Shown here one piece after another: positions 11,500 to 62,195 of a DNA stretch of 64,000 bases (position 1 is the first letter of the stretch; every line of letters begins with the position of its first letter). The translations under genes were made by a program, and so were the position numbers. Below the pieces are notes generated by a model. That model was not told where the DNA came from. It saw nothing but the letters and a program-made list of their open reading frames with translations, and did not search any database. Source of the DNA: Eledone cirrhosa (lineage: Eukaryota); the NCBI GenBank assembly GCA_964016885.1, contig OZ024750.1:35464001-35528000 (forward strand), in the 5' to 3' direction.

Positions 11500-11790
11500 A
11501 TGTGTCTGATGGTAGCTAAGATGCTTCCATAGACGGTATGCCAGTTGAGCACTCTATGCTCTTACAGAGCAGAGTATTATATAATATAAAATGACAAATC
11601 AGTGATGCATCAGAACTCAATTTATTGCGTGCTACAATTGTTTCGCCGGCGGACAGCTCGAGGCGCGATCATTGTGTGGATCTGTCTGATTCTGGACCCG
11701 CAGGTTCGACGGACACGTCTAATGATTTCTAATTGTAACACACAATAAATTGAGTTCTGATGCATCACTGATTTTTCGTTTTATATTATA
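11500..11790 (-). mobile_element. Fold-back mini-element in (TA)n with variant hammerhead (11628-11717)
   Basis: ~60-bp inverted arms (11579-11639 / 11731-11790); minus strand CGTGT-CCGTCGA-[long stem II]-GAA-ACAATTGT-A-GCACG then AATAAA. Confidence 0.75.
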
Positions 11791-13334: not shown

Positions 13335-15548
13335 AAAGAAGACGATTTAGAGACGTATGACATAGATAATAACTGTTCTTACGTGACAACTTACTGCAGG
13401 CTACTGATGAAACTTGTGGCTGGAGCAGAGCTCCAACCAGACAGAGAGTGACCTGGTGGTGGAACAGCACAGTAGATAAGGCCATTAGAGACAAAAGACT
13501 AGCATGGAAGGCTTGGAAAAAGGGTGGGAGTAGGGAAGGATATACAGCCGCTAAGAGAGAAGCTAGACGTCAGGTGTACTTAGCACGCAGGGAGGCTGAG
13601 AGTAGGAGGTTTGCCAATGTTCTGCGACGGGAAGATCAGAGGCATGCGGTGTTCCACATTGCAAGGCAGTGTGTCAATGCAAATCATGATGTTGTTGGAG
13701 ATAAATGTGTCCGGAATGATGCCAGTGTACTTAGTGTCACGAATGATCAGAAAAAGGAGGCCTGGAAATGTCATTATGAGAGATTGATGAATGTGGATAA
13801 CGAATGGGAGAGAGAGAAATTACACTCAGTAGATCCGACAGAGGGACCAGCTATTGAGATTGACGAATATAGAGTCCAAGAGGCGATTAAGGATATGAAA
13901 AATGGTAAGGCTGCTGGACCATCGGGGATAGTTGCTGAGATGCTGAAGGCATCAGGGGATGTAGGCACTAAACTGGTTGCACGCATCATCAATCAGGCTA
14001 TATATGGTGGTGTCATACCCAAAGACTGGTGCAGCAGTATTCTCATAAATTGCTACAAAGGTAAAGGGGATGCTCTGGAGAGGAGCAATTATAGGGGTAT
14101 AAAACTGATGGATCAGGTTATGAAAGTGGCAGAAAGGATATTAGCACAACTAATTAGAGAAAGGGTCAAACTAGATGAGATGCAGTTTGGTTTTGTGCCT
14201 CGGAAGAGTACAACAGATGCCCTCTACTTGGTGAGACAATTACAAGAGAGGTTCTTAGATAAAAATAAGCCACTATACTTAGCCTTTGTTGACCGAGAGA
14301 AGGCCTTTGATAGAGTACCCCGATGTGTCATCTGGTGGTCCCTAAGGAAACTAGGTGTTGAGGAATGGCTTGTGAGGACAGTGCAAACTTTGTACAGAGG
14401 TACTGTCAGTAAAATCAGGGTAGGAATGGAGTTTAGTGAGGAATTCCAGATACAAGTAGGAGTACATCAAGGTTCGGTCCTCAGCCCGCTCTTGTTCATT
14501 ATAGTCCTCCAAGCCATAACAGAGGAGTTTAAGACTGGCTGTCCATGGGAATTCTCTATGGTGATGATCTGTTTCTTATAGCAGAATCAATAGAGGAGCT
14601 AGAGAATAAATTCTGGCTATGGAAACAGCAGTTGGAATCAAGAGGACTGACAGTGAACCTAGCTAAGACAAAAGTGTTGATGAGTAGAAAAGAGGACAAA
14701 ACCCTGATTCCGTCAGGGAAATGGCCATGTTCGATATGCAGAAAAGGAACTGGCATAAATTCTATATAATGTACACAATGCAGATCTTGGGTACACAAGA
14801 GATGTAGTGGGATAGCAGGCAAACTAACAGGTAGGGAGAAATACGTATGCAGTAGATGTACAGGGAAATTAAACAGTAGAAGTCGCATTGATAGACACAT
14901 TTTTCAAATGCAGGCGGATGCTATAGAAGTGGTGGATAGCTTCAGGTACCTAGAAGATCAGATTAGCATGGGAGGGGGTTGTTCCGAGGTCATAGTATCT
15001 AGAATAAAGACAGGTTGGAAGAAGTTTAGGGAGCTGCTTCCTCTGCTGACGAAGAAGGGTTTCTCCCTGCGTACGAATGGCCGGTTATAAGATGCCTCTG
15101 TGAGGAGCGCGATGCTGCATGGTAGTGAGTCATGGGCAGCAACTGCAGAGGATATGCGACAGCTGGCGAGAAATGAGGCAAGCATGCTCCGTTGGATGTG
15201 CAGTGTCAATGTGCGTGAACGACCCAGCATGAATGTGTTGAGAGAGAAACTGTGTCTGAGAGGGATAGAATGTAGTGTGCGATAGAGGAGACTGAGGTGG
15301 TATGGACATATGATGCGCATGGAGGATGACCGATGGGTGAAGAAGTGCCAGGAAATGTCAGTTGAAGGAAGACGTGGTAGAGGTAGACCACGAAAAACAT
15401 GGGCGGAGGTGGTGAGGACAGACCCCAGATCGCTGAAGCTCACGGTGGAGATGACGAAGGGCCGTGACAAGTGGAGAGATGCTGTGCTGAATAAGACCCG
15501 TTCCACCCTTGCAAGCAGGGAAGTACGGACATAAAATGATGATGATGA
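13335..15548 (+). mobile_element. RTE LINE subfamily A, 5'-truncated and degenerate (RT + PHD-like finger)
   Basis: NYRGIKL, QFGF, AFVD.EKAFD, GVHQGSVLSPLLF, YGDDL, LRWYGH, RGRGRPRKTW; frameshift near 14545 and stops; (GAT)n tail. Confidence 0.97.
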
Positions 15549-15618: not shown

Positions 15619-15967
15619 TGGAGGCACATGGCTCAGTGGTTAGAGCATTGGCCTTGCAATCGAAAGGTTGTGAGTTCAATTCTCAGACCGGGTGATGTGT
15701 TGTTTCCTTGAGCAAGACACTTTATTTCACATTGTTCCAGTTTACTCAGCTGTAGAAATGAGATGATAGGGACTGGGGTCCATATCATTCCACTGCAAAG
15801 TGGTCGTTGAGGTGCCACGGCAAAAAAAAAGCACCCAGCACTCACTGTAAATGAGGTTGGTGTTAGGAAATGGCATCCAGCTGTAGAAATCAAGCCAGAA
15901 TCAGTTCCCGTCCTACCCTTGCAAGCAGGGAAAAAGCGGGCGTAAAAGAAAATGATGATGATGATGA

Positions 15968-20544: not shown

Positions 20545-20589
20545 AGTCACTGAAGAGGTCACAGAGTGTGTGACGAAAGAACTATGACT
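20545..20589 (+). ncRNA. Minimal type I hammerhead ribozyme, intact core (element ~20453-20807)
   Basis: AGTCA-CTGAAGA-G-GTCACA-GAGTG-TGTGAC-GAA-AGAACT-A-TGACT: stem I 5 bp, stem II 6 bp, predicted cleavage after CUA. Confidence 0.8.
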
Positions 20590-20896: not shown

Positions 20897-21101
20897 TATA
20901 ATATATATATATATTATATTATATATATATATATATTATATATATATTTATATATTATATTATATATATATTATATATATATATATATTATATATATATA
21001 TATATTATATATATATATATATATTATATTATATATATATTTTATATATATATTATATATATAGATATATATGATATAGATATATGATATATATATGATA
21101 T

Positions 21102-23040
21102 AGATATGAAGATAGGGAAGGCAACCGGTCCATCGGGTATAGCTGCCGAGATGCTGAAGGCATCTGGGTCTGTAGGTCACACTATAACCACACGTATCGT
21201 TAACCAGGTAATACTAGAAGGGGCCATACCAAAAGATTGGTGCAGTAGCATCATTGTCAACTGCTACAAAGGTAAAGGCGATGCACTAGATAGAGGAAAC
21301 TATAGAGGTATAAAGTTGATGGACCAGGTCATGAAAGTAACAGAAAGAGTTATAGCACAGCTGATTAGGGACTGGGTGAATATAGACGAGATGCCATTTG
21401 GGTTTGTACCAGGGAAAGGCACCACTGATGCCCTCTTCCTTGTGAGGCAATTACAGGAAAAGTACCTAGCTAAAAGTAAGCCACTCTACTTGGCATTTGT
21501 CGACCTTGAGAAAGCCTTTGACAGAGTTCCACGTGCAGTAATCTGGTGGGCTCTTAGAAAACTAGGAGTAGATGAATGGCTTGTGAAAGCGGTACAAGCC
21601 ATGTATAGGGAGCAGTCAGCAAAGTTAGGATTAGCAATGAGTATAGCGAGGAATTTAGCGTACAGGTTGGGGTCCACCAGGGCTCTGTTCTTAGCCCTCT
21701 CCTGTTCATCATAGTCCTGCAGGCAATAACGGAGGAGTTTAAGACCGGATGCCCATGGGAACTCCTGTATGCTGATGACCTCGCACTCATAGCTGAATCT
21801 ATGGTAGAACTAGAGAATAAATTCCAAACCTGGAAGCAGGGACTAGAGAGAAAGGGCCTCAAAGTCAACATGACAAAGACTAAGGTCCTTGTAAGTAGAC
21901 GAGAAAACAGAACCCAGATCCCCTCAGGGAAATGGCCTTGCTCAGTATGTAGGAAAGGTGTAGGTAGGAACTCCATTCTCTGCCCCAAATGCAAACAATG
22001 GGTACACAAGAGATGTAGCGGGATCTCAGGAAGCTTAATTAAGAATGTAGGATTCACATGCAGCAGCTGTGCTGAAACAGCAAGCAAACAGCCACGGGAA
22101 ACAAGTACCACCAATCTCTGGGAGGGCCCTGTAGAAACAGTAGACAGCTTCTGCTACCTAGGTGACCGAATTAGCAACGGAGGTGGGTGCTCAGAAAGTA
22201 CAATAACTAGGGTAAGAACGGGATGGAAGAAGTTTAGGGAACTACTACCACTGCTAGCTGCAAAAGGCTTCTCCCTCAGAATGAAAGGCAGACTGTATGA
22301 TGCGTGTATCCGAACAGCGATGTTGCATGGTAGTGAGACCTGGGCGCTGAAGGTGGAAGACTTACGTAGATTAGAGAGAAACGAAGCCTGCATGCTCCGA
22401 TGGATGTGTAACAGTAATATACGTGAACGACAAAGCATAAAGGAATTGAGAGAGAGAGACTGAGCATAAGAGGAATCAAATGCTGCGTGCAGGAGAGGCG
22501 GTTACGCTGGTATGGACATGTGATGCGTATGAAGGATGACAGCTGCATAAAAAGGTGCAGAGCACTAGAAGTTGATGGAAACCGCGGAGTGGGGAGACCC
22601 AAGATGACTTGGGATGAGGTGATAAAAGCCGACCTTACCCAACTACACCTCTCAAAGTCAATGACACACGACCGTGACCTCTGGCGTCAGGCAGTAATAC
22701 AGGGTACCCGACCTCCCATGGGTACATGCAGAAGCATATAAACAATATGCCCCCACTCCCCCCACCGCAAGGTGGTCGTGGAGGTGCCACGGCAAAAAAG
22801 CACCCAGCCCACACTGTAAAGTGGACGTGTAGGTGCCACAAAAAAGCACCCAGCACTCACTGTAAATGAGGTTGGTGTTAGGAAGGGCATCCAGCTGTAG
22901 AAATCAAGCCAGATCAGTTCCTGTATGAGCAAGGCATGGTCAGCCGACCAGACACTGCACACAACAGGACAACCCGTCTAACCCATGCTAGCGTGGAAGA
23001 ACGGACGTAAAACGGTGATGATGATGATGATGATGATGAT
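21102..23040 (+). mobile_element. RTE LINE subfamily B, 5'-truncated with frameshifts
   Basis: RT motifs (FVDLEKAFD, YADD), PHD-like Cys cluster, ~300-bp 3' UTR, (GAT)n tail; a 3' UTR-only copy at 19228-19555. Confidence 0.97.
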
Positions 23041-23046
23041 ATATAT

Positions 23047-25163
23047 ATCATCATCATCACCATTTTACATCCACTTTTCTCTGCTTGCAAGGGTGGGATG
23101 GGCCCTATTCAGCACAGCATCTCTCCACTTGTCACAGTCCTTCGTCGTCTCCTTGGTGAGTTTCAGCAATCTGAGGTCTGCTCTCACCACCTTCACACAA
23201 GTTTTTTGTGGTCCTCCTCTACTGTATCTTCCTTCTACTGGGATTTCTTGGCACTTCTTTACCCAGCGGTCATCCTGCATGCGCATCACATGTCCATACC
23301 ATCTCAGCTGTCTCTTCTGCACACTACAACTTATCCCTCTTATACCCAGTTTCTTTCTCAACTCGTCCATGCTTGGTCGTTTACGCACATTGACACTGCA
23401 CATCCAACAGAGCATGCTTGCTTCATTTCTCTCCAGCCATTGCAGTTGCTGCCCATGACTCACTACCATGCAGCATCACGCATCTCACACATGCATCATA
23501 TAACCGTCCTTTCGTACACAGGGAGAAACCCTTCTTTGTCAACAGAGGAAGCAGCTCCCTAGACTTCTTCCAACCCATCCTTATTCTAGATACTATGGCC
23601 TTGGAACACCCCCCTCCCATGCTAATCTGATCACCTAGGTACCGGAAGCTATCAACCACTTCTATAGAACCCACCTGCATTAGAAAAATGTGTCTATCAC
23701 TGTGATTACTACTGCCAACTTTCCCTGTACATCTACTGCATACGTAGTTTTCCCTACCTGTTAGTTTGCCTGCTATCCCACTACATCTCTTGTGTACCGA
23801 AGATCTACATTGCGTACATTTTATGAAATTTATGCCAGTTCCTTTCCTACTTATCGAACATGGCCATTTCCCCGATGGAATCAGAATATTGTCCTCCCTT
23901 CTACTTACAACACTTTGTTTTAGCTATGTTCACTCTCAGTCCTCTTAATTCCAACTGCTGCTTCCATAGCCAGACTTTATTCTCTAGCTCCTCTACTGAT
24001 TCTGCTATAAGAACCAGATCATCACCATAGAGAAGTTCCTATGGGCAGCCAGTCTTCAACTCTTCTGTTATGTATTGGAGGACTATAATGAACAAGAGTG
24101 GGCTGAAGACCGAACCCTGATGTTCCCCTATTTGTATCTGGAATTCCTCATTAAACTCCATTCCTATTCTCACTTTACTGACAACACCCCTGTACATAGC
24201 TTGCACTGTCCTCACAAGCCTTTCCTCTACACCTATTTTCCTTAGGGACCACCAGATGACAGATCGGGGTACCCTATCAAAGGCCTTCTCTAGGTCAACA
24301 AAAGCTAAGTATAGTGGCTTATTCTTCGCTAACAACCTCTCTTGCAATTGTCTCACCAAGAAGAGGGCATCTGTTGTACTTTTCCGAGGCACAAAACCAA
24401 ACTGTATCTCATCTAATTTGACCCTTTCTCTAATTAGTTGTGCTAATATCCTTACTGCCACTTTCATAACCTGATCCATCAGCTTTATACCCCTATAATT
24501 GCTCCTCTCTAGAACATCCCCTTTACCTTTGTAGCAATTTATGAGAATACTGCTGCACCAGTCTTTGGGTATGACACCACCATATATAGCCTGATTGATG
24601 ATGCGTGCAACTAGTTTAGTGCCTACTTCTCCTGATGCCTTCAGCATCTCAGCAACTATCCCTGATGGTCCAGCAGCCTTACTATTCTTCATTTCCTTAA
24701 TTGCCTCTTGAACCCCATATTCATCAATCTCAATAGCTGGTCCCTCTGTCGGGTCTACTGGGGTAATTTTTCTCTGTCCCATTCATTCTCTACATTAATC
24801 AGTCTCTCATAATGACATTTCCAGGCCCCCTTTTTTTTTATCATTTGTGACACTAAGTACACTGGCATCATTCCGTACACACTTATCTCCAACAACATCA
24901 TGATTTGCATTGACACACTGCCTTGCAATGCGGAACACTGCATGTCTCTGATCTTCCCATCACAGAACATTGGCAAATCTCCTACTCTCAGCGTTCCTGC
25001 GTGTTAAGTACACCTGATATCTAGCTTCTCTCTTAGCGGCTGTGTATCCTTCTCTACTCCCACCGTTTTTCCAAGCTTTCCATGCCAGTCTTTTGTCTCC
25101 AATGGACCTATCTACCATGCTGTTCCACCACCAGGTAACTCTCTGTCTGGTTGAAGCTCTTCT
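23047..25163 (-). mobile_element. RTE LINE subfamily A, degenerate, tail-to-tail with the preceding element
   Basis: Minus ORF pieces align to 13448-15534. Confidence 0.97.
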
Positions 25164-25987: not shown

Positions 25988-26433
25988 TTTCGTTTCTGAA
26001 TTTGTTTAGCAAGATTCTTTATCTGAAATCGTGTGTTGAAACCGATATTGTTATACTTTGGGAGGGTCATGTTGCCAATAAGAAACACACGCACCAGTTG
26101 CTTTCACTTCAATTTATTATAATAAATTTATAAATTTAGGAATTTATAAATTTATAAATTTCTGGTTGGTTGGTTGGTTCCTCAACCAGATAGTTGTTTA
26201 TATATTGTCAAAGTTCTTTCGTCACACATTCTGTGACCTCTTCAGTGACTGGGGAAAGAAAGAACTTTGACAATATATAAACAACTATCTGGTTGTGGAA
26301 CCAACCAACCAACCAGAAATTTATAAATTTATAAATTCCTAAATTTATAAATTTATTATAATAAATTGAAGTGAAAGCAACTGGTGTGTGTGTTTCTTAT
26401 TGGCAACATGACCTTCCCAAAGTATCAAAGTAT

Positions 26434-26440
<7 letters not shown>
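25988..26440 (-). mobile_element. Fold-back mini-element, same family as 20535-20807; HHR at 26207-26250
   Basis: Minus: AGTCA-CTGAAGA-G-GTCACA-GAATG-TGTGAC-GAA-AGAACT-T-TGAC; ~175-bp inverted arm at 26257-26440. Confidence 0.88.
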
Positions 26441-26498
<58 letters not shown>

Positions 26499-26502
<4 letters not shown>

Positions 26503-26901
26503 AGAAAAAAAGAGAATCAGTGTTGCGACGAATGGAATTTATTGGACATATTACAATTGTTTCTCTGGTGACCAGCTCGAGGCACGATCGATGTGATGAT
26601 CGAACCTGACTCTGAAAATCGCAAGGTCCTCAGATATGTCTTTATTCTATGAAGCGGATTTTCCTATCTTCGTAGAATCAAGACGTATCTGAGGACCTTG
26701 CGATTTTCAGAGTCAGGTTCGATCATCACATCGATCATGCCTCGAGCTTGTTAACAGAAAAACGATTGAAATATGTCCAATAAATTCCATTCGTCGCAAC
26801 ACTGATTCTCTTTTTTTCTGTGATATCATACTCTGCTCTATGAGACCATCGAGTGTTCATACGGCCTACCGCATATGGACGCTTTAAGCATCCAACACCA
26901 A
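26499..26901. mobile_element. Fold-back mini-element with two opposed hammerheads (26545-26640 minus, core intact; 26682-26777 plus, decayed)
   Basis: Minus: GACATAT-CTGAGGA-[~63 nt]-GAA-ACAATTGT-A-ATATGTC (7-bp stem I, palindromic stem III, GUA site); arms ~155 bp. Confidence 0.85.
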
Positions 26902-27016
26902 TTATATATAGATATATATATATATGTATGTAAAAGGTAAACAGAAATAACAACATGATCAGTACAGTATATGGAAGGGATATATGAGTTTAACGTTTGA
27001 TATAGCAGGAAGAGGG

Positions 27017-37182: not shown

Positions 37183-37238
37183 ACTGCCTGATGAGGGCAT
37201 AGCCATTCAATGGCTATCATCGAAATATATATAGCAGT
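37183..37238 (+). ncRNA. Minimal type I hammerhead ribozyme (element ~37106-37283 between TA tracts)
   Basis: ACTGC-CTGATGA-GGGC-ATAGCCA-TTCAA-TGGCTAT-CATC-GAA-ATATATAT-A-GCAGT then AATAAA. Confidence 0.82.
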
Positions 37239-37754: not shown

Positions 37755-37887
37755 TAATAAAATAAAACAAGGATGAGTGGTTACTCCTTTATTACATTTA
37801 ATGGTAGGTGACGCACGTTTCATCACCAATCAGCTCAAGGTTCGATCTGTATCGATCTTACCCGACTCTGTAATCAACTGCTCGACT
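37755..37887 (-). mobile_element. Truncated copy of the 61670-62195 HHR family
   Basis: Minus: GTCGA-GCAGTTGAT...GAGTCGGG...GATCGA...GATCGAACCTTGAGCTGATTGGTGAT-GAA-ACGTGCGT-C-ACCT. Confidence 0.8.
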
Positions 37888-39414
37888 ATGGTCAAATTAC
37901 TTTATATAATGACACAATAAATTAATTAAGGACACCAAAATTAAACAATTAAATCTACATATACATATCATCATCATCATCATCGTTTAACGTCCATCTT
38001 CCACGCTAGCATTGGTTAGACAGTTTTGTTCCATTTGATGCAGGAATGTTCGGGAGAACGCGCTTCGCTCGTACGGAAGTGTCTCTGGCAGGTTTTCTTT
38101 ACAGCTGGATGCCCTTCCTAACACCAACCAGATTTACAGTGTGGACTGGGAGCCTTTTTACTGTGGCGCCTACACGACCACCTGACAGTGTGGACTGTTG
38201 TGTCATCGACACAGTGGAGGGAACGGGAAAGGGACGATGGGGTAGGGTGTGGGTGTGGAGCGTACATTGGGTTAAGAGGTGCTTCCTGACTAGGTTTGTA
38301 TGCAAGGGCAGTTGGGTCTTCTGTACAACTGCTTAGCGCCAAAGATCTTGAACCAGTGTCATTGTCTTAGAGAGGTGTAAGTGAGCAAGGTCAGTTTATA
38401 TAAACTGACCTTGCTCACTTACACCTCTCTAAGACAATGACACTGGTTCAAGATCTTTGGCGCTATATATATATGGAGGCACATGGCTTAGTGGTTAGAG
38501 CATAGGCCTTGCAATTGAAAGGTTGTGAGTTCAATTCTCAGACCGGGTGATGTGTTGTTTCCTTGAGCAAGACACTTTATTTCACATTGCTCCATTGTAG
38601 AAATGAAATGATAGGGACTGGGGTCCCTATCATTCCACTGTAAAGTGGACGTGTAGGCACCACGGCAAAAAAGCACCCAGCACTCACTGTAAATGAGGTT
38701 GGTGTTCAGAAGGGCATCCAGCTGTAGAAATCAAGCCAGAATCAGTTCCCGTCCCACCCTTGCAAGCAGGGAAAAAGCGGATGTAAAATGAAATGATGAT
38801 GATGATGATATATATATATATATATATATACTAATAAAGCTGATGGCCGTATGTGTGTAACAAACTTTTCACCAAACGGCACCAGATTCCCACCATTGAT
38901 GTAACGTTTTCTAAGTAAGAAAGAGCGGGTATTTTTGTCTACTAAATTTTGTTAAAAGATTAAAGATATTATTTAAATATTCACTTCTTTAAAGTTTTCA
39001 AATGTCAACACTTCCGGTTATATGACATTACTCTCTCTTTCTTAGTCTGTCTTTTTAGATAGATACATAGCTAGCTATAACGTCGCGCCCTTATATCTCT
39101 TTGTATGTCTGTCTGTCTGCATTATGAAAACCATTCTATACATTGACTTTGCTATCTGTGCGTGTGTGTGTATATATGTATATATAGTGTGTGTATATAT
39201 ATATATATAGTGTGTGTATATAAATATATATATATATACACACACGATATATATATATGTATATATATACACACAGTATATATACACACTATATATATAT
39301 ATATATATATATCGTGTGTATATATATATATATAGTGTTAGTATCATAAATAATTGACAGTTTAATTTGTACATTTTATTACAGCATTCCTTTATACGTA
39401 TATATACGTATAAA

Positions 39415-40590
39415 GGAATGGCTTGTGAGGACAGTGCAAACTTTGTACAGAGGTACTCTCAGTAAAGTCAGGGTAGGAATGGAGTTTAGTGAGGAATTCC
39501 AGATACAAGTAGGAGTACATCAGGGTTCGGTCCTCAGCCCGCTCTTGTTCATTATAGTCCTCCAAGCCATAAGAGAGGAGTTTAAGACTTGGCTGTCCAT
39601 GGGAACTTCTCTATGCTGATGATCTGGTTCTTATAGCAGAATCAGTAGAGGAGCTAGAGAATAAATTCTGGCTATGGAAACAGCAGTTGGAAGCAAGAGG
39701 ACTGAGAGTGAATCTAGCTAAGACAAAAGTGTTGATCAGTAGAAAAGAGGACAGAACCCTGATTCCGTCAGGGAAATGGCCATGTTCGATATGCAGAAAA
39801 GGAACTGGCATAAATTCTATAAAATGCACACAATGCAGATCCTGGGTACACAAGAGATGTAGCGGGATAGTAGGCAAACTAACAGGTAGGGAGAAATATG
39901 TATGCAGTAGATGTACAGGGAAATTAGACAGTAGAAGTCGCATTGATAGACACATTTTTCAAATGCAAGAGGGCGCTATAGAAGTGGTGGATAGCTTCCA
40001 GTACCTAGGAGATCAGATTAGCATGGGAGGAGGGTGTTCCGAGGCCATAGTATCTAGAATAAGGACGGGTTGGAAGAAGTTTAGGGAGATGCTTCCTCTG
40101 TTGACGAAGAAGGGTTTCTCCCTGCGTACGAAAGGCCGGTTGTATGATGCCTGTGTGAGGAGCGCGATGCTGCATGGTAGTGAGACATGGGCAGCAACTG
40201 CAGAGGATATGCGATGGCTGGAGAGAAATGAGGCAAGCATGCTCCGTTGGATGTGCAGTGTAAATGTGTGTGAACGACCCAGCATATATGTGTTGAAAGA
40301 GAAACTGTGTCTGAGAGGGATAGAATGTAGTGTACGGGAGAGGAGACTGAGGTGGTATGGACATGTGAAAGTGCCAGGAAATGCCAGTTGAAGGAAGACG
40401 TGGTAGAGGTAGACCACGAAAAACATGGGCGGAGGTGGTGAGAACAGACCTCAGATCACTGAAGCTCATGGTGGAGATGACGAGGGACCGTGAGGAGTGG
40501 AGAGATGCTGTGCTGAATAAGACCCGTCCCACCCTTGCAAGCAGGGAAAAGCGGACGTAAAATGATGATGATGATGACAATGATGATGAT
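39415..40590 (+). mobile_element. RTE LINE subfamily A, 5'-truncated
   Basis: Aligns to 14363-15548; YADDL, PHD-like finger, internal deletion near 40368. Confidence 0.97.
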
Positions 40591-43739: not shown

Positions 43740-45362
43740 TGTGAACTATCGTCCAATCAGTCTTACTAGTTGCATCGCCAAACTGATGGAATCCTGTGTC
43801 AGAGAAATACTTTGGAACTACTGGAGCTCTCACAGTCTTATCCGGCCCTCGCAATTTGGATTTATACCCAACTCCAGCTGCTGTGATCAACTTATAGAGT
43901 TTCTTGAGGACATCACCCGGATCACTGATGGCGGCTCATAGGTGGATGTTGTTTACCTTGACTTTGCGAAAGCCTTCAATTCTGTGCCACACAAAAGGCT
44001 TATGGCAAAACTCTCTGCAATGGGTGTGAAGGATGATCTTTTTAACTGGTTGAAGTCCTTCATTCTCAGTCGAAGAGAGGTAGTCATAGTTCTAGGACAG
44101 CATTCCCTACCATATGGGATGTTATCTGGTGTACCACAAGGATCTATTCTTGGCCCCCTTTTGTTTGTGGTATATATTAATGACATAGATGCCAACTTAA
44201 AGAATGCCACGGTACTAAAGTACGCAGATGACATCAAGCTGTACCTTGAGATAAAAAGGACAGATCCTGAACACTATAGATCTTGCTTGCAGTCTGACCT
44301 GGACATAATGCAACAATGGATCTCAGACTGGCAACTCAAGCTAGCTGTGGACAAGTGCACCACCATGCATTTTTGGGAGTAAAAACCCAGCGTCCACATA
44401 CTCCCTCCACAGCACTAATATCAAGAAGACTTGTGAACGTGACTTGGGCATTACGGTCAGCAGCGATTTTCGTTGGACGAAACACGTCTCTAAAATTGTC
44501 AAGAGGGCCGAGGGTGTCTTAGCATCACTCAGCAAGACCTTTGTTAGCCGCTCTCCAGATATCTATTTAAGGCTGTACATGGCTATGGTGCGGCCACACT
44601 TAGAATTTGCATCACCAGTCTGGAACCCCTATCTTGCTCAGAACATTGACCGCCTGGAAACTGTTCAGAGACGTGCAACCAAGCGAATACCCTCCATCAG
44701 GCATCTACCATACTCTGAGCACCTTGCTTTCCTGGGCATGGATACATTGAAGCTCCGACGCCTGGCAACTGACTTGGTAAACACCCACAAAATTGTTAAC
44801 CATCTTGCCAACAACAACCCTGAGTACCTTTTTGATTTCCATGTGTCTAACACACGTGGACATGCCCACAAAGTCAGAAAACAGCACAGCTCCCATGACT
44901 TTCGGAAACATTTTTTCACGCTCAGAGTTGCTGAAGCATGGAACAAACTACCTGCATCAGTTGTTAGCTGTCGAGACACTGCATCCTTTAAGGCCTCCAT
45001 GGAACAAATTACCTGCATCAGTTGTTAGCTGTTGAGACACTGCATCCTTTAAGGCCTCCATGGAACAAATTACCTGCATCAGTTGTTAGCTGTCGAGACA
45101 CTGCATCCTTTAAGGCCTCCATAGAACAAACTACCTGCATCAGTTGTTAGCTGTCGAGACACTGCATCCGTTAAGGCCTCCATGCTTCCCGAGATCCGCC
45201 AAGACTACACCTTATGTTCCCCCTCCATACACATACACACATGTATACCATGACTCATACACTATTCACTTCCCTGACATTTGTGTATTATTCTATGTAC
45301 TATACATACACCTTTGACGAGTTGTAGTGCACCTGAGCACTTTACACAATAATTTCATTATA
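43740..45362 (+). mobile_element. CR1-like LINE, 5'-truncated RT, with internal 4x61-bp tandem duplication (44940-45183)
   Basis: NYRPISLT, QFGF, YLDFAKAFNSVPH, GVPQGSILGPLLF, YADDIKLY; one stop at ~43939 and a frameshift at ~44375. Confidence 0.95.
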
Positions 45363-48970: not shown

Positions 48971-49158
48971 TGAGATTCTACAGGACTAGAACTGTTTCAT
49001 TCTTTAGAAATCATCAGGAATCTCATGATTCCTGATGATTTCTAAAGAATGAAACAGTTCTAGTCCTGTAGAATCTCATCTATATTAAAACTTTTATACT
49101 CTGCAATGTATTGAGTACCTTACTTACTGTGGTTACCTCCGATTCAACCCGGAATAAC

Positions 49159-56700: not shown

Positions 56701-59315
56701 ATCATCATCATCATCATCATCAACGTTTAACGTCCGTGTTCCACGCTTGCATGGGTTTGGACGGGGGTAGTCCCACTTGAGGCAAGAGTGATTGTCTTGC
56801 TCGCATAGGACTGTCTGGCAGGTTTTCTACAGCTGGATGCCCTTCCTAACACCAACCACATTTACAGTGTGGGTCTGGGAGGTTTTTACCGTGTTGCCTA
56901 CACGGCCACATTACAGCGTGGACTGTGTGTTTTTTTGTCGTGACACCTACACGATCTCATTTGTTTCGGCCTGGATGGTGTGGCACCAACATAACTTTAC
57001 ATAGAAGGGGGCGGTGTGGATGGGGTGGGGTGGTGGGACGGGGGGGGGGGGGGGGGGAGGGTATTTTGTTAGAGATGCCTACTGGCTGTAGTAGGTTTTA
57101 CTATGTATTTAGGTAAGGCGGGTCTTCTCTGTTACTGAGTACCGCCAAAGGTCTCGGTCCAGTGACATTGTCTTGGAGAGGTGTAAGTGTGTGAGGTCGG
57201 AGTTTATCAGCTCGTCCCAGGTTTTTCTAGGTCTGCCTATTCCGTGGCTACCATCTATCTTTATTGCCCTGCACTTTGTTATACAGCTATCGACTTTCAT
57301 GCGCATCACGTGTCCATACCAACGTAGCCTTCTCTCGAGTAAACAACATCTGATCCCTCTTATTTCTAATTTTTTCCTTAGTTCGTTTATGCTTTGCCGT
57401 TCACGTATATTACTGTTACACATCCAGCGGAGCATGCAAGCTTCGTTCCTCTCTACTCTGCGTATATCCTCTGCACACGATGCCCAGGTCTCACTGCCAT
57501 GCAACATTGCTGTTCGTATGCAGGCATCGTACAGCCTGCCTTTCATTTTTAGGGAGAACCCTTTAGCAGCTAATAGTGGTATAAGCTCTCTGAACTTTTT
57601 CCAACCAGTTCTGACTCTACCTACTGTACTTTCAGAGCACCCTCCCCCACTGCTGATTTTATCACCCAGGTAACGGAAACTGTCCACTATTTCTATAGAA
57701 CCCTCTGCGCAATTGAAAGAGCTAGTATTTTGTGGGCACTTGCTGCTACTTATTGCACCAGAGCACCGGCCACATGTAAAATCTATGTTCTTAGTTAGCT
57801 TACCTGTGATCCCACTACATCTTTTATGCACCCATACTTTGCATTTAGGACATAAAATGGAGTTTCTACCTACGCCTTTCCTACACACCGAGCACGACCA
57901 TTTCCCAGAAGGGACCGCCGCCTTATTTTCTTTCCTACAAACTAGAACTTTAGTCTTAGCCAGGTTAATTTTAAGGCCTTTTGATTCTAGGCCGTGCTTC
58001 CATGTTTGGAATTTCTTCTCTAGCTCGGCCATTGATTCCGCTATGAGTGTCAGGTCGTCTGCGTATAGGAGTTCCCATGGGCAGCCGGTCTTGAACTCCT
58101 CTGTTATAGCCTGAAGGGCAATAATAAATAGTAGGGGGCTGAGAACAGAGCCCTGATGGACGCCAACTTTTACGCTAAACTCTTCACTATATTCGTTGTT
58201 AATTCTAACCTTGCTGACTGTTTCTTTATACATGGTTTGTATAGCTCTCACAAGCCATTCGTCAACGCCTAGTTTTCTAAGAGCCCACCAGATAATGGAG
58301 CGGGGGACTCTGTCGAAGGCTTTCTCCAAGTCGACAAAAGCTAGGTAGAGGGGTTTACCTTTAGCTAGGTACTTCTCCTGTAGTTGTCGTACAATGAAAA
58401 GAGCGTCTGTGGTACTTTTTCCTGACACAAACCCGAACTGCATTTCATCTAGATCAATTCTCTCTCTGATTAGTTGTGCTATTACTTTTTCCGTGACCTT
58501 CATGACCTGGTCGATTAATTTAATGCCTCTATAGTTACTCCTATCTAGGGCGTCTCCTTTACCCTTATAACAGTTAACGATGATGCTGCTATGCCAGTCC
58601 TTCGGAACAACCCCATTCTGTACGACTTGGTTAACTATGCGGGTGACCATGGTGTGTCCCACCGTGCCAGATGCCTTCAGCATCTCGGCAACTATTTCCG
58701 AAGGCCCAGCCGCCTTACCCGTCTTCATATCCTTGATTGCCTTACTTATTATACTCCCCTCGACTAACACTGCTGGTCCCTCTATTGGGTCGATATTAGG
58801 GAGACTGTCTTTCTCCCATTTATTCTCCTCATTTAGTAGCCTTTCATAGTGACACTTCCAAGCTACCTTCTTATCAGCGTCGGTGATGGCAAGTGTGCCA
58901 TCGTCGTTTAGTACACACTTCTCCCCGACAATATCACGGTTTTCCTTGACGCATTGCCTAGCAATCCTGAACACCTCACGTTTTTGGTCATCGCGTTGTA
59001 GAACATGCTTGAACTTTCTTTCCTCAGCTTCCCTTCTTGCTAAGTACACTTGTCTCCTAGCTTCCCTCCTGGCCACTTGATAGTCTTCTCTACTTCCCCC
59101 ATCCCGCCATACTTTCCAAGCCTGCTTTTTGGCCTTAATTGACCCCTCCACCTTACTGTTCCACCACCATGTTACTCTCCTCCTGCCTACAGGCCTGCTC
59201 CAGCCACAGACTTCGTCTGTCGCCAACAGCAGGTTTACTTTCAGAAATTCCCACTCTCCCTCTATATTGTCCGACTCTAAATGTTCTTCCTTACTCTCGA
59301 AAGCATCAAGTGAAA
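56701..59315 (-). mobile_element. RTE LINE subfamily B, 5'-truncated (no endonuclease), young
   Basis: ~400-bp 3' UTR with (GAT)n tail plus an uninterrupted ORF. Confidence 0.98.
57109..59226 (-). CDS. RTE reverse transcriptase with embedded PHD-type (C4HC3) finger; N-terminally truncated, no authentic start
   Basis: 705 stop-free codons: NYRGIKL, QFGF, FVDLEKAFD, GVHQGSVLSPLLF, YADD, CSVC...CPKC...HKRC...CGRC, LRWYGHVMR. Confidence 0.9.
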   Translation of the reverse strand: MATDEVCGWSRPVGRRRVTWWWNSKVEGSIKAKKQAWKVWRDGGSREDYQVARREARRQVYLARREAEERKFKHVLQRDDQKREVFRIARQCVKENRDIVGEKCVLNDDGTLAITDADKKVAWKCHYERLLNEENKWEKDSLPNIDPIEGPAVLVEGSIISKAIKDMKTGKAAGPSEIVAEMLKASGTVGHTMVTRIVNQVVQNGVVPKDWHSSIIVNCYKGKGDALDRSNYRGIKLIDQVMKVTEKVIAQLIRERIDLDEMQFGFVSGKSTTDALFIVRQLQEKYLAKGKPLYLAFVDLEKAFDRVPRSIIWWALRKLGVDEWLVRAIQTMYKETVSKVRINNEYSEEFSVKVGVHQGSVLSPLLFIIALQAITEEFKTGCPWELLYADDLTLIAESMAELEKKFQTWKHGLESKGLKINLAKTKVLVCRKENKAAVPSGKWSCSVCRKGVGRNSILCPKCKVWVHKRCSGITGKLTKNIDFTCGRCSGAISSSKCPQNTSSFNCAEGSIEIVDSFRYLGDKISSGGGCSESTVGRVRTGWKKFRELIPLLAAKGFSLKMKGRLYDACIRTAMLHGSETWASCAEDIRRVERNEACMLRWMCNSNIRERQSINELRKKLEIRGIRCCLLERRLRWYGHVMRMKVDSCITKCRAIKIDGSHGIGRPRKTWDELINSDLTHLHLSKTMSLDRDLWRYSVTEKTRLT

Positions 59316-59412
59316 TTTATTAATAATAATAATTATTATTATTATTTACGTCAGGTGTCAGGTTGACACATGGCATAATTTGGGAAAGAAGCAGAATTCA
59401 AAGGAACTTTCA

Positions 59413-61563: not shown

Positions 61564-62195
<632 letters not shown>

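What the first reader, a model, noticed from the sequence alone, without database searches (positions are those of the whole stretch)
26545..26640. Conserved ~60-nt accessory domain inserted in hammerhead stem II
Seen: three families have an enlarged stem II with shared motifs GA(G/A)UC(A/G)G...GAUC-loop-GAUCG..CCU(C/U)GAGCUG. At 26.6 kb: GAGTCAGGTTCGATCATCACATCGATCGTGCCTCGAGCTG; at 62.0 kb: GAGTCGGGTAGGATCGATATAGATCGAACCTTGAGCTG; at 11.7 kb: GAATCAGACAGATCCACACAATGATCGCGCCTCGAGCTG. The basal helix and loop differ but the internal-loop motifs persist. Inference: a structured module (tertiary brace, protein-binding site, or compensation for the CCGUCGA core), unlike the short stem II of typical minimal HHRs.
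Basis: partly seen in the sequence, partly recalled or inferred. Interest (0 to 1): 0.75.

Follow-up and report, generated by a model that had tools for sequence, protein, structure and literature searches.

The report
Conserved extra arm on retroelement hammerhead
Thousands of copies of a Penelope-like jumping gene in this animal genome end in a predicted self-cutting "hammerhead" RNA with an arm more than twice as long as in published relatives, carrying a small bulged motif as conserved as the catalytic core itself, likely a docking site for a protein that controls cutting; neither cutting nor binding has been tested.

Summary
The motif lies on the minus strand at 26.6 kb, in stem II (63 nt) of a type I hammerhead, and has about 7,000 exact matches in the genome (control 0). 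It marks the pseudo-LTR of Hydra-clade Penelope-like elements; full RT plus GIY-YIG partners were found for two of the three families. Across 14 lineages, two of which have RTs only about 65% identical and unalignable 3' UTRs, its 12 core positions change 3 times, against 11 changes in 15 catalytic positions and 43 in 18 basal-stem positions. The basal helix covaries; the motif's own pairs are invariant. Among dead genomic copies it decays like its flanks. It is not a compensation for the CCGUCGA core: it predates that core, and the 26.6-kb copy has a canonical one. At most 2 of 111 copies end at the cut site, and many end about 30 nt upstream of the core, so the copied RNA looks uncut. Best reading: a clade-specific protein-docking stem on a protein-assisted hammerhead (0.5); RNA tertiary brace second (0.25). 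A new variant of a known association, missed by Rfam.

The parts
26545..26640 (-). Type I hammerhead, lineage A1, left arm of a fold-back insertion; predicted cut between 26552 and 26551
26627..26633 (-). Core strand CUGAGGA (canonical)
26564..26626 (-). Stem II, 63 nt: 9-bp basal helix, bulge, 3 bp, 2x1 purine loop, U-A/C-G, pyrimidine bulge, AGG/CCU, apical hairpin
26608..26612 (-). Module 5' strand GARUC
26573..26579 (-). Module 3' strand YGAGCUG
26552..26563 (-). GAAA, 2-bp stem III with palindromic loop (dimer type), GUA site
26538..26543 (-). AAUAAA directly after stem I (AWUAAA in the lineages examined); polyadenylation signal by inference
26641..26667 (-). 5' leader; this arm ends at 26667, 115 nt upstream of the cut site, where family A 5' ends pile up (inferred RNA start)
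26668..26826 (+). Right arm: inverted twin with decayed GAAA and cut triplet; module at 26710
26827..26903 (+). One-sided tail, the stretch that leads into the ORF in tandem copies; holds the conserved ACUC...UCGAGU stem (26830-26854)
11626..11719 (-). Homologous hammerhead, lineage C2, core CCGUCGA, module GAAUC / CGAGCUG
61953..62043 (+). Homologous hammerhead, lineage B1, core CCGUCGA at 61959, module at 61979 and 62010
61715..61810 (-). Inverted B1 twin with intact module
37800..37895 (-). Decayed B-type copy with intact module

Best explanation
The feature is the enlarged stem II of the hammerhead motif in the pseudo-LTR of one subgroup of Hydra-clade Penelope-like retroelements, and its invariant bulged internal loop is likely a docking site for a protein, most likely the element's own reverse transcriptase-endonuclease, that would govern when the ribozyme folds and cuts. 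Shown by calls: the link to the element, the conservation between lineages, the pairing of the basal helix, palindromic stem III loops of several different sequences, and copies that run through the cut site. Inferred: transcription starts about 30 nt upstream of the core; the protein starts copying in the tail downstream of the hammerhead and copies uncut RNA back to its 5' end, which would give the many short fold-back insertions in (TA)n; cutting would need a dimer and probably the protein. The 26.6-kb copy itself is likely a dead insertion: a transcript across both arms is predicted to fold into one long hairpin.
For: Partner elements: HHR-tail-ORF-3'UTR-HHR tandems for B1 (L217, L218); an RT plus EN element ending in the A1 hammerhead (L249). 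Hydra motifs RWR, DKT, CxCX5C, CxxC, CxH and C-terminal GIY-YIG present (definition in PMC8557442 section 11). A1 and B1 RTs 63-67% identical, EN 49-51%, 3' UTRs unalignable, yet 11 of 12 module positions identical. Parsimony per column: module 0.25, catalytic core 0.73, basal 2.39, apical 2.64, downstream flank 3.55. Spacing to the core is fixed (12-14 nt on the 5' side, 9 nt on the 3' side) while the apical part varies from 18 to 22 nt in the lineages and the distance to the inferred RNA start differs, which points to an RNA structure. Five pairs in and beside the module show no two-sided change in 37 copies, the pattern of sequence-specific recognition. The full layout is the minimum-energy fold of isolated stem II in 5 of 10 representatives. 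The Anolis Poseidon hammerhead cleaves only with the element's protein, and uncut RNA is the main template (PMC11167929, parts 1-2 of 4 read). Here 2 of 81 A copies and 0 of 30 B copies end near the cut site, and both of those look like internal deletions.
Against: No binding or cleavage data; no RNA run was listed. In the Anolis element a template cut back to +20, lacking most of stem II, still supported insertion, so stem II is not needed there. RNAalifold predicted only 6 basal pairs and none in the module; in 5 of 10 representatives isolated stem II folds otherwise, wholly or in part; whole window copies fold with z from -2.1 to +1.4 and not as hammerheads. Invariant pairs fit an RNA receptor as well. 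The module's borders were drawn after seeing the conservation and many copies were fetched through the motif, so the p-values are optimistic. Lineages D and E could not be linked to an ORF.
Confidence: 0.5

Rival explanations
1. The module is an RNA-RNA tertiary contact that replaces the usual loop II to stem I brace, docking on the strand after stem I or on the partner hammerhead in the dimer.
For: Natural hammerheads need stem I to stem II contacts, and these are proposed to offset variant cores (PMC3088659 passages). The fixed 9-bp basal helix sets the module's phase. Position 4 of the basal helix is unpaired in 10 of 16 lineages and a G-U wobble in 5.
Against: Stem I is only about 5-7 bp and varies freely (17 changes in 10 columns) while the module begins about 12 bp from the core. 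Apart from AAUAAA no conserved partner was seen; possible 4-7 bp pairing with the tail stem is not compensated in lineage C2 (by eye).
Confidence: 0.25
2. The two conserved words act as DNA, as part of the internal promoter or enhancer in the pseudo-LTR.
For: Penelope has an internal promoter just downstream of its start (PMC2377424 passages). Copy 5' ends pile up 15-35 nt upstream of the core, so the module would lie 47-53 nt into the transcript.
Against: The distance between the two words varies, and so does their distance from the inferred start (about 53 nt in A, about 47 in B), while both keep a fixed register on an RNA helix whose basal pairs covary.
Confidence: 0.1
3. The shared words only reflect common ancestry and biased sampling; long stem II arms are simply tolerated.
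For: All lineages are one clade; many copies were found through the motif; dead copies decay evenly; other hammerhead families in the same loci have stem II arms of 13 to 75 nt without this motif.
Against: A1 and B1 3' UTRs are unalignable while the module differs at 1 of 12 positions. In a search that did not use the module, 68 of 100 listed rows carried it, and no related family of that length lacked it (by eye). Most A and B copies found by tail or upstream sequence alone that reach stem II carry it.
Confidence: 0.07
4. The module arose to compensate for the weakened CCGUCGA core.
For: U4C arises 3 times and A6U twice on the lineage tree; U4C lowers activity in vitro (PMC3088659). The module may have allowed this relaxation.
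Against: 9 of 16 lineages have a canonical CUGANGA core with the module; C4 also occurs in short-stem families without it.
Confidence: 0.05
5. The module is a SECIS element or a kink-turn.
For: Each strand contains a GA step; Naiad PLEs carry SECIS elements (PMC8557442).
Against: No AUGA, no conserved apical AA, no 3-nt bulge 5' of a tandem G-A pair; no Rfam match even at E 10; it lies about 2 kb past the stop codon or upstream of the next ORF.
Confidence: 0.03

Closest known systems
Hammerheads of Hydra-clade Penelope-like elements (Craig et al. 2021, PMC8557442; section 11, passages, and File S1 and S2 rows seen)
   Same: Type I hammerhead near the element's 3' end, short stem III, often an unpaired position at the base of stem II, (TA)n targets, same protein motifs.
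   Different: Published Hydra stem II plus loop spans 10-24 nt (File S2) against 57-63 nt here; no internal-loop module is listed; elements here are about 4.9 kb with a 1.8-2.1 kb 3' UTR against under 3 kb; variant cores CCGUCGA and CCGANGA.
Metazoan PLE min-HHRs (Cervera and de la Pena 2014, PMC4209133, passages)
   Same: In pseudo-LTRs, palindromic stem III needing a dimer, thousands of single or opposite-strand copies, helix II called larger than usual.
   Different: Their larger helix II is 6-8 bp; no conserved internal loop appears in the passages seen.
Poseidon PAc hammerhead of Anolis (Frangieh et al. 2024, PMC11167929, parts 1-2 of 4)
   Same: Hammerhead just upstream of the tail and ORF start; uncut RNA is copied; tail defined by two internal start sites.
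   Different: Different clade; most of stem II is dispensable for insertion in vitro; no such module is described in the parts read.
PLE-X hammerheads of spike mosses (PMC8557442 File S2)
   Same: Long stem II of about 47-53 nt, marked as deviating from the canonical structure.
   Different: Chlamys lineage, sequence unrelated by eye, no conservation analysis given.

Membership tests
Type I hammerhead ribozyme | Core C3-U4-G5-A6-N7-G8-A9 and G12-A13-A14 | tested here: met
   CUGAGGA and GAAA at 26.6 kb; C3, G5, G8, A9 and GAAA invariant in 16 lineages, U4C in 7 and A6U in 3
Type I hammerhead ribozyme | Three helices, with A15.1-U16.1 and an NUH site | tested here: met
   Stem I: 5 of 5 pairs with two-sided changes; A-U pair in 37 of 37; basal stem II covaries
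Type I hammerhead ribozyme | Paired G10.1-C11.1 at the base of stem II | tested here: not met
   C-A at 26.6 kb; paired in 8 of 16 lineages. Published Hydra hammerheads also often leave this position unpaired, so this is a known departure
Type I hammerhead ribozyme | Match to an Rfam hammerhead model | tested here: not met
   No hammerhead family at the gathering score in the window or at E 10 in 26400-26900; the long stem II is the likely cause
Type I hammerhead ribozyme | Self-cleavage | not testable with these tools
   No RNA run listed; copy ends show no excess at the site
Dimer-type PLE hammerhead | 1-2 bp stem III with palindromic loop | tested here: met
   Loops AAUU 7, GCGC 4, GAUU 2, AUAU 2, AACU 1 of 16 lineages; 8-bp self-duplexes for the three window families
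Hydra-clade PLE | Single ORF, RT then C-terminal GIY-YIG | tested here: met
   L062, L217, L218, L249; all copies seen carry frameshifts or stops. Pfam gave no hit at E 0.1; assignment is by motifs and by-eye likeness to Hydra-1_Obim
Hydra-clade PLE | RWK-type, DKT, CxCX5C, CxxC and CxH motifs | tested here: met
   (RWR in place of RWK); definition
Hydra-clade PLE | Insertion in (TA)n, pseudo-LTR tandems, inverted 5' copy, one-sided tail | tested here: met
Hydra-clade PLE | Generally shorter than 3 kb | tested here: not met
   4.8-4.9 kb between pseudo-LTR hammerheads in L217 and L218; stated as a tendency, not a diagnostic
Hydra-clade PLE | Placement in an RT tree with reference clades | not tested
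   Reference proteins were seen only as supplement text
Naiad PLE | N-terminal endonuclease | tested here: not met
   EN is C-terminal
Non-LTR retrozyme | Head-to-tail arrays of short monomers | tested here: not met
   Copies seen are single or inverted pairs and continue into a PLE 3' UTR
SECIS or kink-turn | AUGA quartet with apical AA, or 3-nt bulge plus tandem G-A pairs | tested here: not met
   Lineage sequences and Rfam

The most novel reading that the evidence does not exclude
A retrotransposon hammerhead carries its own conserved protein-recognition domain in stem II, a built-in switch by which the element's telomerase-like reverse transcriptase licenses or blocks self-cleavage and tells its own family's RNA from others; different Hydra subgroups in this genome have evolved different such arms.
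Probability: 0.3. Interest if true: 0.75.

Novelty: new variant of a known kind. Interest (0 to 1): 0.48.

Why it matters
What hammerheads do for Penelope-like elements is an open question: they cut poorly alone, and the one reconstituted case needs the element's protein. A 12-position motif that changes less than the catalytic core gives a precise target for testing protein-assisted cleavage. These hammerheads escape Rfam and fall outside a published core-spacing search of 7-17 nt, so ribozyme counts in such genomes are likely too low. The pile-up of copy ends about 30 nt upstream of the core offers a genomic map of the RNA start and indicates that uncut RNA is what gets copied.

Tried and rejected
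Neptune label: my first reading from the linker cysteines; dropped after earlier notes pointed to Hydra and the motifs were checked. Naiad: rejected, EN is C-terminal; two 10-letter module strings were absent from the held, truncated part of the Craig supplement, and three shorter strings hit only unrelated-looking Chlamys or PLE-X text. Metagenome scan: 6 hits, none with a convincing stem I plus stem III, about what chance gives by my rough estimate. Sequencing runs: no RNA holder listed; contigs of X5 and X6 cover only pieces, 3 and 5 records, not used as evidence. Pfam on four partner ORFs: nothing; protein search: 6 unnamed homologues at 37-54%. ORF links for lineages D and E: none in 73 loci searched. 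Cut-site truncation as a sign of cleavage: no excess. Long-range pairing of the module with the tail stem: 4-7 bp possible, not compensated in C2. A splice acceptor 13-14 nt before the core in A and B: not shared by other lineages, and most copies extend past it. Lunse et al. 2017 (PMC5785218), the paper most likely to list long-stem PLE variants, is not held. No covariance model was built, since this genome cannot be searched with one.

Full report
Observation. The window is repeat-rich animal DNA from a 3.0-Gb assembly; no call names the host. Read on the minus strand, 26545-26640 is a type I hammerhead: stem I, core CUGAGGA, a 63-nt stem II, GAAA, a 2-bp stem III with loop AAUU, a GUA site, then AAUAAA. 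The strings quoted for 11.7 and 62.0 kb are there too, with cores CCGUCGA. The motif occurs 6 times in the window and 0 times in 200 shuffles. It has 6,975 exact matches genome-wide against 0 for the reversed pattern. Rfam finds no hammerhead here. The copy is the left arm of a 159-bp, 94% inverted repeat in (TA)n, with a 77-nt tail on the right arm only.

What carries it. Long copies of family B show the full Penelope-like layout: hammerhead, tail, an ORF with RT and C-terminal GIY-YIG, a 2.1-kb 3' UTR, a second hammerhead, and often an inverted 5' copy (L217, L218, L061, L062). Family A, the one at 26.6 kb, has the same kind of partner (L249). The proteins carry RWR, DKT, CxCX5C, CxxC and CxH, the Hydra-clade marks given by Craig et al. 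2021 (section 11 read). My first label, Neptune, was wrong; earlier scan notes prompted the check. A C-lineage copy has an adjacent RT 76% identical to A1's, a link by position only. D and E stay unlinked.

Is the module selected? From 131 fuzzy hits I kept 89 with a core at the right distance and at most 2 mismatches; 42 were dropped, among them a 47-nt family without the module. Of the 89, 79 fell into 16 hand-merged lineages and 10 singletons were left out. On a tree of the 14 lineages with 3 or more copies, built without the module columns, the 12 module positions need 3 changes. The 15 catalytic positions need 11, the basal stem 43 in 18, the apical stem 37 in 14, stem I 17 in 10, and the downstream flank 71 in 20 (p 7e-6 against other stem columns and 0.31 against the core, optimistic because the borders were chosen afterwards). 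A1 and B1 have RTs 63-67% identical, endonucleases about 50%, and 3' UTRs with no alignable stretch beyond simple repeats, yet they differ at 1 of 12 module positions. As a check on sampling, a pattern using only core, stem III and poly(A) signal gave 13,920 hits against 74 controls. Of its 100 listed rows, by eye, 68 carry the module (two rows are duplicates), 14 are the 47-nt family, 11 are short-stem families, 4 are a 48-nt family and 3 are other; no related family of about 60 nt lacked it. Among 81 family A copies picked by their downstream sequence alone, the module decays like its neighbours: 20 of 651 non-CpG positions, against 26 of 1050 basal, 61 of 1475 apical and 25 of 803 upstream. 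Selection therefore acted on active lineages, not on inserted copies.

Structure. On 37 copies chosen by hand across lineages, 80.8% of cells pair against 73.5% in shuffles (0 of 500) and 29-35% when slid; 20 of 31 pairs show two-sided changes (the shuffle ignores relatedness). The basal 9-bp helix covaries strongly. The first pair of RGG/CCY is A-U, G-U or G-C; the third is G-C or A-U. Between these helices lie a 1-3 nt bulge, three pairs ending in G-C, a 2x1 purine loop (A and R opposite G), U-A, C-G and a bulged pyrimidine; these pairs show essentially no two-sided change. RNAalifold alone recovered only 6 basal pairs. Isolated stem II folds into the full layout in 5 of 10 representatives, and whole window copies do not fold as hammerheads by energy alone. 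Stem III loops are palindromes of different sequence, which supports the known dimer mode.

What copy ends say. A copy made from the cut 3' fragment would start at the GUA site. Only 2 of 81 A copies and 0 of 30 B copies end near it, and both look like internal deletions. Instead, 39 of 81 A copies end 91-120 nt upstream of the site, and 19 of the 27 that reach 111 nt stop by 119. The 26.6-kb arm stops at 115. By eye, D1 copies also tend to stop about 35 nt before the core; B shows this more weakly (5 of 30 at 100-115, 9 of 30 beyond 189). I read this wall as the RNA's 5' end (inference; Penelope has an internal promoter in its pseudo-LTR, PMC2377424 passages). It fits the Anolis Poseidon work, where copying starts internally in the tail, uncut RNA is the main template and the hammerhead cuts only with protein (PMC11167929, parts 1-2 of 4).

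Mechanism. I put 0.5 on a protein-docking stem, 0.25 on an RNA brace, 0.1 on a DNA promoter element, 0.07 on ancestry alone, 0.05 on core compensation and 0.03 on SECIS or kink-turn. For protein: invariant pairs beside bulges and a purine loop, placed about 12 bp from the core and so beyond a 5-7 bp stem I with no conserved partner, and the protein dependence in Anolis. Against: no assay; most of stem II was dispensable for insertion in Anolis; a separate conserved stem in the tail is the better start signal. Compensation fails as an origin because 9 of 16 lineages have canonical cores.

Comparison with what is known. Hammerheads in PLE pseudo-LTRs are known (PMC4209133, passages). Published Hydra examples have a stem II of 10-24 nt, and two spike-moss PLE-X elements about 50 nt (File S2 rows). 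Nine full-text searches and passages or parts of eight papers showed no description of this module. Lunse et al. 2017 is not held, bioRxiv supplements are closed, and the Craig supplement is truncated, so a prior description cannot be excluded. Long arms are common in this genome, 13 to 75 nt in other families, and earlier scan notes already record some; the addition here is a defined, clade-specific motif as conserved as the catalytic core. It has been seen in one genome only. Verdict: real, a new variant of a known kind, interest 0.48.

Noticed in passing
L094:726, L143:2309, L261:895, L047: A separate hammerhead family with a 50-52 nt stem II and its own pyrimidine-rich internal loop, with different apical stems in different copies: a second candidate module.
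   Followed up: partly
L033, L034, L067, L068: Hydra-like family, RT about 50% identical to A1 and B1, with a 47-nt stem II whose apical AUCGAU pair resembles that of family A but lacks the module; possible outgroup.
   Followed up: partly
L092, L097: Family with a 48-nt stem II beginning GUCCG and an asymmetric A-rich internal loop.
   Followed up: no
L095:1501: Hammerhead-like motif with a well-paired 75-nt stem II.
   Followed up: no
window 26045-26433, 20545-20589, 37183-37238, 48971-49075: Other type I hammerhead motifs (stem II 18, 18, 27 and 12 nt), some in fold-back insertions; the 26.0-kb one was read by eye.
   Followed up: partly
window 26830-26854; tails: An ACUC...UCGAGUGCU stem in the tail is conserved across lineages A to E; its 3' strand shares UCGAG with the module's 3' strand.
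   Followed up: partly
L174, L280, L289, L290; window about 11727: Several copies end 6-7 nt upstream of the cut site, at the centre of the stem III palindrome, not at the cut; fold-back or microhomology is likely.
   Followed up: partly
window 13373-14581, 21088-24782, 39573-40391, 43942-44382, 57109-59316: LINE reverse transcriptase fragments, several followed by a PHD finger.
   Followed up: no
window 15629-15686 and copies near 27.8, 30.4, 38.5 and 63.5 kb: tRNA-derived SINE heads; one just reaches the Rfam tRNA score.
   Followed up: no
window 31.6 kb and 50.4 kb: Two related small palindromic insertions in (TA)n, not examined.
   Followed up: no
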